Counted from the first letter of the stretch, positions 48,701 to 50,979 are shown. The stretch: 64,000 nucleotides of DNA from Ktedonobacteraceae bacterium (GCA_034438135.1 DAOTTL010000166.1:13264-77263); one strand, 5' to 3'. Numbers and translations: made by a program. Notes: a model not told the origin generated them from the sequence alone.

Positions 48701-50979
48701 ACACACCCCTCTATGCCTTGTTCCTGTAACCAGACCTGGAGCATAAAGGGGACAAAATGGATCGTGGTAATTGCCTGTTCCTGGACGAGTTGGCGTATAT
48801 AGTGGCTATCCTGATGTCCCTGAGGACGTGCCAGCACGAGTCTAGCGCCTGTTAGTAATGGCCATGTATATTCCCAGACCGAGACATCAAAGCTGATGGG
48901 TGTTTTGTGCAGCACACGGTCGGTCGAGGTAAGTTGATATTCCTGTTGCATCCATAGCAGACGATTGCAGATCCCACTATGGCTATTCATTGCGCCCTTA
49001 GGTTGGCCAGTGGAACCAGAGGTATAGATGACGTAGGCCAGGTTTTCGGGCTGCGTCAGGCTTGGCAGTGGATCGCCGCTGTATTCAGCTATGTGCGACC
49101 AGTGATCGTCGAGACAGAGGAGATGTCCCTGATACTCAGGGAGGATGGATAGGCAGTCATGTTGGGTGAGCAGGATCTGGATGCTGGCATCTTGAAGAAG
49201 AAAGCTCAGGCGCTCACCGGGATAGGAGGGATCGAGCGGCACAAACGCGCCGCCAGCCTTAAGGATGGCGAATATGCCGATGAGCAAGAGAGGCGAGCGC
49301 TCAAGGCAGAGGCCAACGAGGACCTCAGGACCAACGCCCTGGCTTCGTAAGAGGTGTGCGAGGCGTGTGGCTCGCTGGTTGAGTTCAGCGTAGCTGATTT
49401 GTTCGTCCTCGCACACAAGAGCAATGGCGTCGGGGCTACGCTGAACCTGCTCCTCAAAGAGTTGGTGGAGACTGAGGTGTTGTGGGAAGTGTTGCTGTGG
49501 TCCGCTGGCCAGGTGCAGCATGCGCAGGTGTTCCTCATGTGAAAGTAGGGGAAGCTCGTTGATGGGCAACCGGGGAGTGGCGACCATCGCGGCGAGCAGG
49601 GTTTGTAACTGTGAGGCCATGGCCGCAATGGTGGAGGGTGCGAAGAGATCACGATTGTATTCCAGTACACCCATTAGACCGGTTGGCGAGGGCTGCATAC
49701 TGAGACTAAGCTCAAAGCGAGCGGTCGTGCGAGCAATGGGCAGCGGCGTCAGATGGAGGCCAGGTAGAGTCAGAGGCTCGACAGGAGTATTTTGCAGGAT
49801 GAAGAAGGCCTGAAAGAGTGGTGAATGGCTCAGATCGCGCTGCGGATGCAGGGCCTCAACCAGCCGCTCAAAGGGGAAGTCCTGCCGGGCATAGGCATCC
49901 AGACAGCGCTGACGGATACGAGCGAGCAGTTCGTGTAACTGCGGGTTGCCCGTCAGGTCGGCTCGCAGAACGAGGGTATTGACGAAGCAGCCGATGAGGG
50001 TTTCGAGTTCGGCATGGGTGCGATTGGCAATGGGGGTGCCGATGAGCAGATCGTCCTGGCCGCTGTAGCGAGCGAGCAGCAGGGACCAGGCGGTGAGCAG
50101 GGTCATGAAGAGCGTCACGCCCTGTTGCTGACTGAAGGTGGTCAGGTGTTGAGAGAGGGAAGCAGGCAGGGTAAAGCGCAGACGATCACCCTGAGAGGTG
50201 AGCATGGGAGGCCGAGGGAAATCGGTAGGCAGGCTGAGCACCAGGGGAGCGTCCTGCAACTGCTCCAGCCAGAAGGTACGTTGGCGTTCGAGGGCAGGAC
50301 CATGTAGCCACTCACGTTGCCAGAGGGCATAGTCGGGATACTGAATGGGTAGGGGGAGTAGGGGAGAGACATCGTGAGAGCAACAGGAAGGATAGAGGAG
50401 CGAGAGTTCGTGTTGGAAGACGCCCAGTGACCAGCCATCAGAGACGATGTGATGCATGGAAAGAAGCAGTATATGCTCTTGAGCGTGCAAGCGCACTACA
50501 TAAGCGCGGAGTAGAGGACCCTGAGCCAGTGGGAAAGGTGTCTCACTTTCCTGGGAAGCGAGCTGCTCAAGCAGAGTCTCTTGCTGTGCCGCAGAAAGTC
50601 CAGAGAGGTCGATGAGGGGTAATGAGAGCGTAAGAGCTGGCAGAATGTGCTGGACGGGAATGCCGTCTCTGCTGGGGAAGATGGTGCGCAAACTCTCGTG
50701 CCGACGCAGAATGATGTTGAAGCATTCCTCCAGGGCCGCGATGTTAAGCGTTCCCTGCATGCGCAATGCCGCTGCTATACTGTATGAGGTATTGTCCGGT
50801 TCTATCTGATCGAGCAGCCACAGCCGTTGTTGCGCGAACGAGAGCGGCACATCTCCACCACCAGCCCTTACGGGGATCTCTGGCTCCTGCTCTTGCGGCG
50901 TACCAGCTAGCTCTTCCTCAAGCAAAAGCGCAAGAAGTTGCTCACTTTCCTCATATGTCAGATCTTCGCTATCCATCAT
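39787..50979 (-). CDS. NRPS, three modules: C-A-T-E-C-A-T-C-A-T
   Basis: The three modules read as follows:
- Module 1: C HHIVSDGWS, A3 LAYVIYTSGSTGQPKGAMNSH, T FFELGGDSILN, E (PIQSWFF, HHLLIDGVSW at 47263-47292)
- Module 2: C HHILLDGWS (DCL-like, starts IADIYELSPMQQGILFH), A3 LAYVIYTSGSTGLPKG, T FFELGGHSLLATQV
- Module 3: C HHIVSDGWS, A3 LFCVLFTSGSTGQPKG with SQSFVISLWQF (Val in place of Asp235), T FFDLGGHSLLMV

The protein ends in a basic tail, ...GKSRVKQRFNQRQQASREQRSRQV. Codes are DVWHMSLIDK (Ser-like, giving D-Ser via the E domain), DLFNNALTYK (Ala-like) and a non-canonical V-I-W... code. The start ATGATG overlaps the upstream stop by 11 nt. Confidence 0.93.
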   Translation of the reverse strand: MMDSEDLTYEESEQLLALLLEEELAGTPQEQEPEIPVRAGGGDVPLSFAQQRLWLLDQIEPDNTSYSIAAALRMQGTLNIAALEECFNIILRRHESLRTIFPSRDGIPVQHILPALTLSLPLIDLSGLSAAQQETLLEQLASQESETPFPLAQGPLLRAYVVRLHAQEHILLLSMHHIVSDGWSLGVFQHELSLLYPSCCSHDVSPLLPLPIQYPDYALWQREWLHGPALERQRTFWLEQLQDAPLVLSLPTDFPRPPMLTSQGDRLRFTLPASLSQHLTTFSQQQGVTLFMTLLTAWSLLLARYSGQDDLLIGTPIANRTHAELETLIGCFVNTLVLRADLTGNPQLHELLARIRQRCLDAYARQDFPFERLVEALHPQRDLSHSPLFQAFFILQNTPVEPLTLPGLHLTPLPIARTTARFELSLSMQPSPTGLMGVLEYNRDLFAPSTIAAMASQLQTLLAAMVATPRLPINELPLLSHEEHLRMLHLASGPQQHFPQHLSLHQLFEEQVQRSPDAIALVCEDEQISYAELNQRATRLAHLLRSQGVGPEVLVGLCLERSPLLLIGIFAILKAGGAFVPLDPSYPGERLSFLLQDASIQILLTQHDCLSILPEYQGHLLCLDDHWSHIAEYSGDPLPSLTQPENLAYVIYTSGSTGQPKGAMNSHSGICNRLLWMQQEYQLTSTDRVLHKTPISFDVSVWEYTWPLLTGARLVLARPQGHQDSHYIRQLVQEQAITTIHFVPFMLQVWLQEQGIEGCVSLRRVMCSGEVLPLETERRFHQRLKASLYNLYGPTEAAIDVSAWKCQPDSTRGSVPLGRPIANTDLYILNAALQPVPLGAVGELYIGGVAIGRGYLGKADLTAERFVPHPWSQTAGARLYRTGDAARYLADGIIEYVGRQDGQIKLRGYRIEPGEIEAVLRRQSAVQDAVVLLREYSPGDKRLVGYVVLHKDRAFHADELRHYLLKHLPVYMVPATFIQLDSLPLHLNGKVDRLALPLPEKSPANQASTFVAPRTPTEELLASIWAEVLRCDHVGIHDNFFELGGDSILNILVITHARQAGLHFTPKQLFQHQTIAELSIVVNALPAIQTEQGLVSGPVLLTPIQSWFFEQAWADPQHFNQAMLLQIQARLNIALLEHALRHLMVQHDALRLRFRQEQESWQQFNAGPEVSIDLLRVDLTACSPAEQRTALETTASELQDSLQLANGPLFRVALFEMGAQQHARLLLVSHHLLIDGVSWRILLTDLQTAYQQLAQGEDVHLPPKTTSFQQWAAHLSAYAYSPALRHELTHWLAEERLRATPLPRDYPAGDNTRASALSTTVSLNNQETEALLHSAPNAYQTHINDLLLTALLLAFTDWTGSPQLLLDMEGHGREEILEDVDLSRTVGWLTTLFPVLLESAGMHNPGDSIKSVKEQIRHIPQRGIGYGILRYLNAEAEIAERLRALPPAEVRFNYLGQFDQVISENTLFALSGESSGPSVSQRGKRSYLLDINGLIVRGQLQIVWSYSQNIYKSTTIERLAQRFIQALKDIIAHCQSPEAGGYTPSDFPLARLDQARLDRFLTQITPQQRTTSAKIENLADIYELSPMQQGILFHTLYAPASGVYLQQMSVRLHGNLNRMAFHKAWQQVVDQHPVLRTAFYWTNLDVPLQVAYKQINLPWHEYDWRDIPLAQQQDQLIAYLRTDRQQGFELDHPPLMRFHLLQLDEQTSHFIWSYHHILLDGWSLSLLFKEVLACYTATCRNESYHLTLQQPYREYLAWLHQQDLDQAERFWRQTLKGFQEPTPLTVDNSIEGSRSPEPEINTLQVRLSTTLSAHLRSLVRQKQVTLNTLIQGAWGLLLSRYSGREEVLFGVTVSGRPPGIAGVETMIGLFINTLPLRVQVPPTAMIGDWLKDLQTQQVEARQYEYSPLTQVQQWSEIHADMPLFESLVVFENYPVSLLASEQRNDLHIEQMHTFEQTNYALTLMVAPATEILLQIGYDTRRFEADSIQRLAGHLQTLLEGMVANPQQQLAYLPLLTKAEQESFGWNSSSQPSQEHCLHQLFEQQVTRTPDAIALIWQDEQLSYQELNQRANALAHSLQARGIGPDTRVALCMERSIELLVSLLAILKAGGAYVPLDPAYPQQRLAFLLSDAQVALLLTQERLLTRIASSYQGPVLCLEKVETPAHDWSKANPQSRVTDRNLAYVIYTSGSTGLPKGVAIEHRSPVALVNWASEVFALEYLDGVLASTSVCFDLSIFELFVPLCRGGKVILIENVLHLSSLPARSGVTLLNTVPALMTELLQTQGVPNSVRVINLAGEPFQQSLARQLYQRKTLAQLFNLYGPSEDTTYSTFALIQKDAAGPPPIGHPITQTQAYLLDSHLQLVPVGVSAELHLGGTGLARGYLHRPDLTAEKFIPDPFSNQPGSRLYKTGDLARYRSDGSIEFLGRMDSQIKLRGFRIELTEIEAVLREHNSVHEALVIVHEDKAAEKQLVAYVTAQSQADLDYSTLRHYLQKQLPHYMVPSTFVLVEAFPLNANGKIDRRALPHPNNAGLKQAFLPVAPRTPMEEALVAIWSAVLRRETVGIYEDFFELGGHSLLATQVILRLRELLQRTLPLRVIFEAPTIASLAQRLTSSTQEELGLTLPPLLPRTHQEPVPLAFAQQRLWFLEQLDIDPALYIMAAALRMQGTLNVSALEECFNIILSRHESLRTIFLLHQGEPVQQVLPALTLSLPLIDLSGLALTQQETLLQQLATQDSEAPFRLAQGPLLRATLLRLNAQEHVLLLSMHHIVSDGWSLGVFQRELTLLYPSCCSHGTSPLSPLPIQYPDYALWQRQWLHGSALDLQRSFWLEQLQGAPLVLSLPTDFPRTPVLTSQGGRLRFTLPASLSQHLTTFSQQQGVTLFMTLLTAWSLLLSRYSGQDDLLIGTPIANRTHADLEALIGCFVNTLVLRADLTGNPQLQELLARIRQRCLDAYAHQDFPFERLVEALHPRRDLSHSPLFQAFFILQNAPVEALTLPDLHLTPLPIARTTASFEISLSMQPSPNGLLGVLEYNRDLFDPSTIAAMASQLQTLLTAMVSTPHLPISELPMLSSQERLHLLQLAITPTPAKPADMRSISERIEEMTHSRPDAIAVVCEDEQLTYHELDQRSTHLAYLLRTQGVGPEVLVGLCLERSPLLLIGLLAILKAGGAFVPLDPSAPPARLQQILQQSDTHFLLSTPTLAPLCASLSAALPDLSLLWLPALLQQPLPAPALLPQLLPQNLFCVLFTSGSTGQPKGVMLSHAGVLNHLSAKIEALHLSPADTLAQTASQSFVISLWQFLAPLLSGARLLILPTPTVQDPSLLLASLALARVSVLELVPSLLRVLLDLPTMHQGLPLPDLRWLILTGEALPPELVQRLRQRAPSLHLLNAYGPTEASDDVAHALLSASDEATGRSTPIGRPIANIRLLILDRFGQLAPPGVPGSLHIAGLGLSRGYLADPAQTAEVFLPDPFSSLPGTRLYRTGDLARWRPDGQLEYLGRVDQQVKVRGVRLELGEIESLLRQHPAILNAAARLWEPPDAAPRLLAYLVWRQQPATASLSEIRLFLQERLPESMLPELFLTLPKLPLNANGKLDRQALPAPERIRPEEIAKYIAPRTKTERTIAHIWQEVLQLEKVGTHDNFFDLGGHSLLMVPIHQKLKEAFGTTIALLDLFKYPSIDALTTYISQGEDTSATGRQNDSLGEKLQAGKSRVKQRFNQRQQASREQRSRQV
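40200..41650 (-). other. A domain with Val at the Asp235 position (copy 1)
   Basis: The A4 region reads AQTASQSFVISLWQFLAPLL. The Val codon GTC lies at 41104-41106, where canonical A domains have FD. A3, A5 (NAYGPTEASDDV), A7, A8 and A10 are intact. Confidence 0.8.
46325..47700 (-). other. Epimerization (E) domain (approximate bounds)
   Basis: It is preceded by a GGDSI-type T domain. Motifs are PIQSWFFEQ (about 47650-47700), HHLLIDGVSW (47263-47292), EGHGRE, FNYLGQ, and an end at GGYTPSDFPLARLD (46321-46370). Confidence 0.88.

What the first reader, a model, noticed from the sequence alone, without database searches (positions are those of the whole stretch)
48990..49060. Homology break right at the A3 core: same C and A N-terminus, different specificity half (Ser versus Gly)
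Module 1 of gene 39787-50979 and module 3 of gene 50969-60808 are near-identical from the start of the C domain through to ...TQPENLAYVIYTSGSTGQPKG. They diverge immediately afterwards.

The first continues AMNSHSGICNRLLWMQQ... with code DVWHMSLIDK (Ser-like). The second continues VQITHRAVINFLHAM... with code DILQLGLIWK (Gly-like). The corresponding position in the second gene is about 52360-52420.

This is the signature of a natural A-subdomain (A4-A10 specificity region) replacement, with a crossover at or next to the conserved A3 motif.
Basis: seen in the sequence. Interest (0 to 1): 0.65.

Follow-up and report, generated by a model that had tools for sequence, protein, structure and literature searches.

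The report
Recombination edge at NRPS A3 motif
Two neighbouring modules of a soil bacterium's peptide-making enzyme share one copied scaffold that stops exactly at a conserved motif, after which their substrate-choosing halves (glycine versus serine) are unrelated; the break is real, but this is a known way for such enzymes to evolve.

Summary
Both genes lie on the minus strand. Module 1 of gene 39787-50979 and module 3 of gene 50969-60808 are 83.8% identical in DNA and 85.9% in protein from the start of the C domain to the last residue of A3. That is similar, not near-identical. Identity then steps to 41% DNA and 28% protein within one codon (window 48995 and 52362). Maximum chi-square is 386, against 16 at most in permutations. 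Synonymous divergence goes from about 0.6 to saturation. The codes DVWHMSLIDK (Ser-like) and DILQLGLIWK (Gly) are correct.

The break is one edge of a larger structure. A T-C-A(N-terminal) block occurs four times in the two genes, with a second shared edge at A2 and a mosaic history inside the C domain. Every repeat of 80% identity or more in the window has a pyrimidine-rich coding strand, also at third codon positions. All single-copy DNA, including the Ser and Gly halves, does not. The blocks meet the published numeric definition of GRINS.

So a recombination endpoint in A3 is well supported. Its direction is not. Composition mildly favours the scaffold being copied over resident modules rather than the specificity halves being swapped in. 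No donor or orthologue was found. Similar C-to-A3 repeats occur in other phyla. This is a new member of a known kind.

The parts
48994..49041 (-). A3 core motif (LAYVIYTSGSTGQPKG, g1 aa 647-662) of module 1 of gene 39787-50979. The homology with g2 module 3 ends at its last codon (48994-48996). Because TSGSTGxPKG is conserved in all A domains, the crossover can only be placed within about 48994-49026.
   Evidence: maximum chi-square breakpoint at window 48995; pyrimidine-excess change point at aa 661.
52361..52408 (-). A3 core motif (g2 aa 2801-2816) of module 3 of gene 50969-60808. This is the matching end of the homology.
   Evidence: it sits on a 31-mer (52380-52410) of raised depth in the soil read sets.
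48995..50851 (-). Repeat copy C: the C domain plus the A-domain N-terminus up to A3 of g1 module 1. It is skewed (mean |GC skew| 0.25, mean |TA skew| 0.17).
52362..54495 (-). Repeat copy B: the T domain of g2 module 2, then the C domain and A N-terminus up to A3 of g2 module 3. The part 52362-54209 pairs with copy C at 83.6%. It is skewed (0.24 / 0.17).
54387..57723 (-). Repeat copy A: the T domain of g2 module 1, then the C domain and the whole 'X-type' A domain of g2 module 2. It is 82.2% identical over 3352 nt to copy D and is skewed (0.25 / 0.21).
40037..43365 (-). Repeat copy D: the T domain of g1 module 2, then the C domain and the whole 'X-type' A domain of g1 module 3. It is skewed (0.25 / 0.20).
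48001..48993 (-). Single-copy, unskewed specificity half of g1 module 1 (from after A3 to A10, aa 663-993), code DVWHMSLIDK (Ser-like). It is followed by T and E domains.
51383..52360 (-). Single-copy, unskewed specificity half of g2 module 3 (from after A3 to A10, aa 2817-3142), code DILQLGLIWK (Gly).
49226..49260 (-). A2 motif (LKAGGAFVPLD, g1 aa 573-583; its last codon ends at 49231) with the second repeat edge at about 49226-49229 just after it. Up to here all four copies are 77-90% identical. After it, {g1M1, g2M3} and {g1M3, g2M2} are unalignable (37-40% nt). The matching point in g2 module 3 is about 52593-52596.
14115..15886 (-). Copy 1 of a second, unrelated repeat: a whole A domain in gene 10691-20452, 84.6% identical to 20691-22471. 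It shows the same skew (0.22 / 0.19).
20691..22471 (-). Copy 2 of the second repeat: the A domain in gene 20459-25777, skewed (0.20 / 0.21).

Best explanation
The break is the downstream edge of a repeated DNA block. A T-C-A(N-terminal) scaffold of about 1.9-3.3 kb occurs four times in two adjacent NRPS genes, feeding g2 module 2, g2 module 3, g1 module 1 and g1 module 3.

The copies arose and were partly homogenised by homologous recombination between modules (duplication and gene conversion). Tract ends fall in conserved A-domain core motifs. These motifs supply short stretches of DNA identity: 20 identical bases between the two A3 regions.

In g2 module 3 and g1 module 1, which are consecutive in the assembly line, the tract ends at A3. 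The result is an 86%-identical C domain and A N-terminus joined to unrelated specificity halves that select Gly and Ser. The Ser module also carries an E domain.

The blocks carry a pyrimidine-rich coding strand, also at synonymous sites, and meet the numeric definition of GRINS, the skewed and conversion-prone repeats described in assembly-line synthases.

Shown: the step, its position, the four-copy family, the skew, and the mosaic inside the C domain.

Inferred: that the scaffold spread over resident Ser and Gly modules rather than the halves being imported, and that the chimeric A domains are active.

The confidence of 0.6 is for the whole statement, including the direction of the event. 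That there is a recombination endpoint in A3 I hold at about 0.9.
For: - Step at one codon in identity and in dS.
- Four-copy family with shared edges at the A-T linker/T start, at A2 and at A3.
- Inside the C domain the grouping of the four copies switches near aa 200-240. Informative sites are 40/9/2 against 10/23/7, chi-square p = 2e-6. The copies have therefore exchanged sequence.
- All six repeat segments of 80% identity or more have mean |GC skew| 0.20-0.25 and mean |TA skew| 0.17-0.21. Non-repeat megasynthase DNA has about 0.08-0.14 and 0.07-0.11. None of 767 non-repeat 1.86-kb stretches passes both 0.15 thresholds.
- The skew is present at codon position 3.
- The change point in g1 is aa 661, against the homology break at aa 662.
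- The non-homologous X and Y versions of the A2-A3 segment are both skewed, while the 78 aa after the break are not. An unrelated second repeat family is skewed the same way.
- The scaffold has no relative above 54-56% identity outside the window, so it multiplied within this lineage.
- The Ser and Gly halves need no missing donor under this model.
- The GRINS definition and model come from PMC8256042.
Against: - No orthologous cluster was found, so the direction of transfer cannot be read from a phylogeny.
- The copies are old (dS about 0.6), so there is no evidence of ongoing conversion.
- The skew could simply be inherited from one skewed ancestral module, although the second, unrelated skewed repeat argues against this.
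- GC and TA skews here have opposite sign and are only weakly correlated within blocks (r -0.08 to -0.31). Most described GRINS show a positive correlation.
- The change point in g2 is about 54 codons from the break, so it is less sharp than in g1.
- C-to-A3 repeats in other genomes are mostly unskewed, so skew is not needed to make such a junction.
Confidence: 0.6

Rival explanations
1. One module was duplicated. Then the region from A3 to the end of the A domain was replaced in one or both copies by recombination with a foreign A domain of different specificity (a natural A-subdomain swap).
For: - The breakpoint lies at a conserved core motif and the specificity code changes across it.
- Partial A-domain exchange with breakpoints at core motifs is the dominant documented route of NRPS diversification (PMC8097286).
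- The Ser half is about 60% identical to Ser-type A domains from many phyla, and to the Ser-type domain of gene 30585-36608. This is higher than the scaffold's 54% to anything outside the window.
Against: - No donor was found: the best match to the Ser half is 60% inside the window and 64% outside it. The Gly half, compared only with the window and the first 79 fetched loci, reaches 51% and 60%.
- Homology does not resume at or after A10 for this pair. In g1 the 'insert' would have to run about 1,880 aa, through T-E-C-A of the next module.
- The divergent region includes Asub (A8-A10), which natural swaps tend to leave untouched.
- The halves have the composition of the single-copy parts of the cluster, not a foreign one.
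Confidence: 0.3
2. This is the assembly-artefact model. The window comes from a soil metagenome, and the assembler joined two different A domains at the conserved A3 motif.
For: - The g2 junction lies on a 31-mer (52380-52410) with depth 22.5, against flanks of 7.4 and 10.7. Independent Logan contigs end there.
- Many other A-domain contigs in the sample share the A3 words.
Against: - A 1160-nt Logan contig with no mismatches spans the g1 junction, covering 48361-49520.
- Flank depths at the g2 junction are similar to each other in all three runs.
- The reading frames, the overlapping stop and start at 50969-50979, and the module order are coherent.
- The two A3 regions share only 20 identical bases, too few to collapse at k = 31.
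- The skew and homology pattern repeats at four separate places.
Confidence: 0.05
3. This is the no-recombination model. The N-terminal part of the module is simply under stronger purifying selection than the specificity half.
For: C domains and motifs A1-A3 are conserved in general.
Against: - Synonymous sites differ just as sharply: the proportion of synonymous differences is about 0.4 before the break and 0.79 after it.
- Other module pairs in the same genes reach only 44-64% nt identity in the same N-terminal region.
- The change happens within one codon.
Confidence: 0.01

Closest known systems
Natural partial A-domain (Acore) recombination in NRPS clusters (Baunach et al. 2021, PMC8097286; earlier work on mcyB/mcyC, PMC2174460)
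   Same: - Relatedness changes abruptly inside an A domain at a conserved core motif.
- The C domain and the C-A linker are kept while the substrate code changes.
- The same C domain serves different acceptor substrates, which argues against strict C-A co-evolution.
   Different: - Those cases were defined against orthologous clusters with an identifiable donor. Here only paralogous modules of one cluster can be compared.
- The unlike region runs through Asub (A8-A10) to the A-T linker, whereas natural swaps usually keep Asub.
- There is one breakpoint per pair, not a two-ended cassette.
[quoted passage not shown] 2021, PMC8256042)
   Same: - Longer than 500 bp.
- More than 80% identity to another region of the same cluster.
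- Mean absolute GC and TA skews above 0.15, including third codon positions.
- Abrupt skew edges that coincide with repeat edges.
- Mosaic relationships between the copies.
   Different: - GRINS were described chiefly in cis-AT PKS genes of Streptomyces and noted only in passing in NRPS modules.
- Here the skews have opposite sign (C+T-rich coding strand) and are weakly correlated within blocks.
- The copies are eroded, at about 78-84% identity.
Engineered exchange units and subdomain swaps (flavodoxin-like or recognition-subdomain swaps of Kries 2015 and Crusemann 2013, cited in PMC11355689; XUT T-domain fusion point, bioRxiv 10.1101/2022.12.02.518901)
   Same: The natural junctions here (T-domain start, A2, A3) lie at or near sites used or proposed for engineering. 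g2 module 3's T domain keeps family similarity up to the FFELGGHS core and then diverges, close to the XUT breakpoint.
   Different: - Engineered subdomain swaps exchange a much smaller piece with two junctions.
- The repeat here begins at the A-T linker rather than inside the T-domain core.

Membership tests
NRPS C-A-T modules | Condensation, AMP-binding, AMP-binding_C and PP-binding domains in order, with core motifs C3, A2-A10 and GGxS | tested here: met
   Pfam hits for both genes and a motif map. g1 = C-A-T-E, C-A-T, C-A-T. g2 = three C-A-T modules.
Natural A-domain subdomain swap (Baunach 2021) | Abrupt change of relatedness inside the A domain at a conserved core motif | tested here: met
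   Step at the last codon of A3. Chi-square 386 against a permutation maximum of 16.
Natural A-domain subdomain swap (Baunach 2021) | The exchanged segment is closer to another module (the donor) than to its own orthologue | tested here: inconclusive
   No orthologue or donor was found: at most 54-56% identity to the C-A region in genome and metagenome contigs, and at most 64% to the Ser half in the protein collection. The Gly half, compared only with the window and the first 79 fetched loci, reaches at most 60%. A test using the A2-A3 segment was uninformative.
Natural A-domain subdomain swap (Baunach 2021) | The substrate specificity code differs across the exchanged part | tested here: met
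   DVWHMSLIDK against DILQLGLIWK.
Natural A-domain subdomain swap (Baunach 2021) | The Asub domain and the Asub-T interface are left intact (a trend, not a strict rule) | tested here: not met
   The pair stays at about 50-65% nt identity through A6-A10, and the T domains are unlike.
GRINS (Nivina 2021) | Duplicated region longer than 500 bp with more than 80% DNA identity to another region of the same cluster | tested here: met
   1857 nt at 83.6%, 3352 nt at 82.2%, 1922 nt at 80.6% and 1787 nt at 84.6%. Some cross-pairs fall just below, at 77.6-79.7%.
GRINS (Nivina 2021) | Mean absolute GC skew and TA skew above 0.15 (150-nt windows, 30-nt step) | tested here: met
   0.20-0.25 and 0.17-0.21 in all six repeat segments. 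None of 767 non-repeat stretches passes.
GRINS (Nivina 2021) | GC and TA skews are correlated within the element | tested here: inconclusive
   The signs are opposite and the within-block r is only -0.08 to -0.31. The paper reports mostly positive correlation, with anticorrelated cases also seen.
GRINS (Nivina 2021) | Signs of gene conversion between copies | tested here: met
   dS of about 0.6 against saturation. The grouping of copies switches inside the C domain, p = 2e-6. This shows past exchange, not recent activity.
GRINS (Nivina 2021) | Located in assembly-line PKS genes | tested here: not met
   The blocks are in NRPS modules. The two PKS genes of the window (66% identical to each other) are unskewed. 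The paper notes some GRINS in NRPS modules of hybrid clusters.

The most novel reading that the evidence does not exclude
Skewed, conversion-prone repeats of the GRINS type operate in the NRPS genes of an uncultured soil bacterium. They repeatedly overwrite T-C-A(N) scaffolds up to the A2 or A3 motif while sparing the specificity halves. In effect they standardise the inter-module machinery around interchangeable substrate cassettes. The skew (C+T-rich coding strand) would be a property acquired by repeated DNA, not inherited from one ancestor.
Probability: 0.3. Interest if true: 0.5.

Novelty: new member of a known kind. Interest (0 to 1): 0.3.

Why it matters
This is a clean natural example of one C domain and one A-domain N-terminus (86% identical) working with two different specificity halves in consecutive modules, joined exactly after the A3 P-loop. 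It supports the view that C domains are not strict gatekeepers. It also points to the end of A3 as a fusion site that nature tolerates even when Asub travels with the specificity half.

The match between repeat edges and skew edges extends the GRINS observation to NRPS genes outside Streptomyces. It adds no new principle.

Tried and rejected
- **Donor within the window.** All-against-all comparison of the 15 A domains, split at A3, found the best match to the Ser half at 60% (the Ser-type domain of gene 30585-36608) and to the Gly half at 51%. There is no donor.
- **Donor or orthologue elsewhere.**
  - Protein search with the Ser half: best 64%, from many phyla.
  - Protein search with the scaffold: best 54%.
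  - Genome contigs: best 54%.
  - Metagenome contigs: best 56%.
  - Exact look-up of g1: not on record.
- **Direction test.** I asked whether the A2-A3 segment resembles that of Ser-type or Gly-type A domains among 217 external A domains. There was no difference: about 33-38% mean identity in every group.
- **'Goes back' joint 52136->48995.** It appeared in all three soil runs and looked like an alternative junction. It is a 2-kb contig of another A domain that matches only 47 nt of the A3 motif with 3 mismatches. Rejected.
- **Selective constraint alone.** Rejected by the step in synonymous divergence.
- **Not run.** RDP and GARD were not available. Maximum chi-square, sliding identity, dS and four-sequence site patterns were used instead.

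
Full report
**Layout.** All large ORFs of the window are on the minus strand.
- Gene g2 (50969-60808) encodes three C-A-T modules.
- Gene g1 (39787-50979), whose start overlaps the stop of g2, encodes C-A-T-E, C-A-T, C-A-T.
- Downstream lie a KS-AT-ACP gene and a C-A-MT-T NRPS gene, then an FAD monooxygenase gene and an MFS transporter gene. Beyond these there is further NRPS/PKS DNA.
- Upstream, gene 61733-64000 ends in a thioesterase domain.

**The observation.** The quoted peptides are present.
- BLASTN aligns g1 coding nt 129-1985 with g2 coding nt 6600-8447 (window 48995-50851 against 52362-54209) at 83.6% over 1857 nt. 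The alignment ends at A3.
- In a codon alignment the block (g1 aa 43-662) is 83.8% nt and 85.9% aa identical.
- The last 100 aa before the break are 82.7% nt and 83% aa identical. The first 100 aa after it are 40.8% nt and 27.6% aa identical.
- The codon view shows the switch directly after ...QPKG.
- The maximum chi-square breakpoint is g1 nt 1985 (window 48995). Chi-square is 386, against at most 16 in 200 permutations.
- The proportion of synonymous differences is 0.37-0.55 before the break and 0.79 (saturated) after it.
- Other module pairs show only 44-64% nt identity over the same N-terminal region. Constraint alone therefore cannot explain the pattern.
- The specificity codes were re-derived by alignment: DVWHMSLIDK (one change from the classical Ser code) and DILQLGLIWK (the classical Gly code). 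That these are the classical codes is from my own knowledge of the Stachelhaus code.

'Near-identical' should read 'about 84-86% identical'.

**The break is one edge of a four-copy repeat.** g2 module 2, g2 module 3, g1 module 1 and g1 module 3 share a C domain and the A-domain start at 77-90% nt identity.
- For three copies the repeat begins about 20 aa after A10 of the preceding module, at the start of the T domain (APRSPLEEMLV...), and runs through the T-C linker.
- For g1 module 1 the preceding T domain is that of g2 module 3. It keeps family similarity only around the FFELGGHS core and is followed by the protein end.
- All four copies are alike up to the A2 motif (LKAGGAFVPLD, g1 aa 573-583; homology ends near aa 584). 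They then split into two unalignable types:
  - 'Y', shared by g1M1 and g2M3 up to A3.
  - 'X', shared by g1M3 and g2M2 through the whole A domain (82.2% over 3352 nt).
- Within the C domain the informative sites group g1M1 with g2M3 in aa 41-200 (40/9/2). In aa 241-440 they group the copies by gene (10/23/7). Chi-square p = 2e-6. The copies have exchanged sequence, with a switch near the junction of the two lobes of the C domain.

**Composition.** The repeat blocks have a distinct base composition.
- Using the window size of the GRINS paper (150 nt, step 30), the four blocks have mean |GC skew| 0.24-0.25 and mean |TA skew| 0.17-0.21.
- The Ser half has 0.11 / 0.11 and the Gly half 0.13 / 0.12.
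- The other non-repeat NRPS and PKS parts have 0.08-0.14 / 0.07-0.11.
- The coding strand is C+T-rich, also at third codon positions.
- In g1 the change point of pyrimidine excess is aa 661, one residue from the homology break. In g2 it is aa 2870, 54 residues away. The other block edges are also tracked to within about 50 residues.
- The unrelated X and Y versions of the A2-A3 segment are both skewed. The 78 aa after each break are not.
- A second, unrelated repeat (whole A domains at 14115-15886 and 20691-22471, 84.6% identical) has the same skew.
- None of 767 non-repeat 1.86-kb stretches passes both 0.15 thresholds. Repeat and non-repeat windows differ at p of about 1e-24 for GC skew and about 3e-17 for TA skew.
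- These values meet the published numeric definition of GRINS: longer than 500 bp, more than 80% identity within the cluster, and mean absolute GC and TA skews above 0.15 (PMC8256042).
- The GC and TA skews here have opposite sign and correlate only weakly within blocks.

**Origin and relatives.** The window matches three soil-metagenome runs.
- A 1160-nt independent contig spans the g1 junction without a mismatch.
- The g2 junction lies on a 31-mer (52380-52410) of raised depth at which independent contigs end.
- That 31-mer is unique within the window, and the two A3 regions share only 20 identical bases. A chimeric join is therefore unlikely but not excluded.
- No close relative exists in the collections:
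  - Scaffold: at most 54% in the protein collection.
  - C-A region: at most 54% in genome contigs and at most 56% in metagenome contigs.
  - Ser half: at most 64%, with hits from many phyla, as expected for Ser-type A domains.
  - Gly half: compared only with the window and the first 79 fetched loci; best 60%.
- The scaffold family therefore multiplied within this lineage. No donor or orthologue is available to polarise the event.
- An indirect test of direction, using the A2-A3 segment against external Ser-type and Gly-type domains, was uninformative.

**Interpretation.** A homologous-recombination endpoint in the A3 motif is well supported. Two histories fit:
- (a) Whole-module duplication followed by replacement of the specificity half.
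- (b) Spread of the T-C-A(N) scaffold by duplication or gene conversion over pre-existing Gly and Ser modules, with the tract ending at A3.

I favour (b) modestly, for these reasons:
- The repeated parts are skewed whatever their homology class, while the Ser and Gly halves share the composition of the single-copy parts of the cluster.
- No donors are needed.
- The C domain shows exchange among the copies.
- In g1 the unlike region continues for about 1,880 aa (T-E-C-A) without returning to the family.

Against (b), the copies are old (dS about 0.6), and the skew could be inherited rather than acquired.

**Comparison with what is known.**
- Partial A-domain recombination with breakpoints at core motifs is documented as the main route of NRPS diversification. 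The conserved motifs are proposed as recombination hot spots, and C-A co-evolution is questioned (PMC8097286).
- This locus differs in that Asub is part of the unlike region and only paralogues can be compared.
- GRINS were described mainly in PKS genes and noted in some NRPS modules.
- A survey of the 159 loci fetched here found 52 intra-locus repeats of at least 500 bp and at least 80% identity. They include 'C-domain start to A3' blocks of 1.77-1.88 kb in L018, L024 and L031 (proteobacterial and Gemmatimonadales MAGs). They also include the inverse pattern, an A3-to-A10 repeat in L054.
- Most of these repeats are not skewed.
- An A3-bounded C-A(N) repeat is therefore a recurring and ordinary feature of NRPS clusters.

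**Verdict.** This is a new example of known mechanisms. Its modest extra interest is that the repeat edge and the skew edge coincide.

Noticed in passing
window 40198-41238 and 54548-55594 (A domains of g1 module 3 and g2 module 2): The duplicated 'X-type' A domains lack the conserved Asp235 (the sequence reads SFVISLW instead of FDxS). Their code is VIWEITADDK, with Asp at positions 330 and 331. The substrate may not be a standard alpha-amino acid. No prediction was attempted.
   Followed up: partly
window 14115-15886 and 20691-22471: A second repeat family: whole A domains in genes 10691-20452 and 20459-25777, 84.6% identical over 1787 nt. It has the same C+T-rich coding-strand skew as the first family but is otherwise unrelated to it.
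   Followed up: partly
window about 50260-50380 (g1 aa 200-240, C domain of module 1): The grouping of the four C-domain copies switches from 'g1M1 with g2M3' to 'grouped by gene' shortly after the HHxxxDG motif. This is near the junction of the two C-domain lobes used as the XUC engineering site (site identity from memory).
   Followed up: partly
window 44418 (g1 module 2), 18472 and 25102 (A3 positions): Three A domains carry FDLSIFE...NLYGPSEDTTYS. For g1 module 2 this gives the code DLFNNALTYK, the classical Cys code (from memory). Its C domain has a normal HHxxxDG motif, so it is not a cyclisation domain.
   Followed up: no
window 52380-52410 and 48996-49051: In the soil read sets the A3-motif words have three to ten or more times the depth of their flanks. 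Many other A-domain contigs share 33-50 nt with them. Short-read assemblies of such clusters branch exactly at A3.
   Followed up: yes
window 60808 and 61733-64000: The upstream gene ends with A-T-TE, and g2 begins directly with a C domain. g2 may therefore open a separate assembly line with a starter-type C domain. The boundary between clusters was not examined.
   Followed up: no
L054:7415-8480 / 10604-11675; L038:10007-21175; L105:1977-8038: Other public NRPS loci hold strong internal repeats. L054 has an A3-to-A10 piece repeated at 90% with intense skew (0.35 / 0.18). L038 (Sphingobium) and L105 have near-identical tandem modules at 96-99.97% identity.
   Followed up: no
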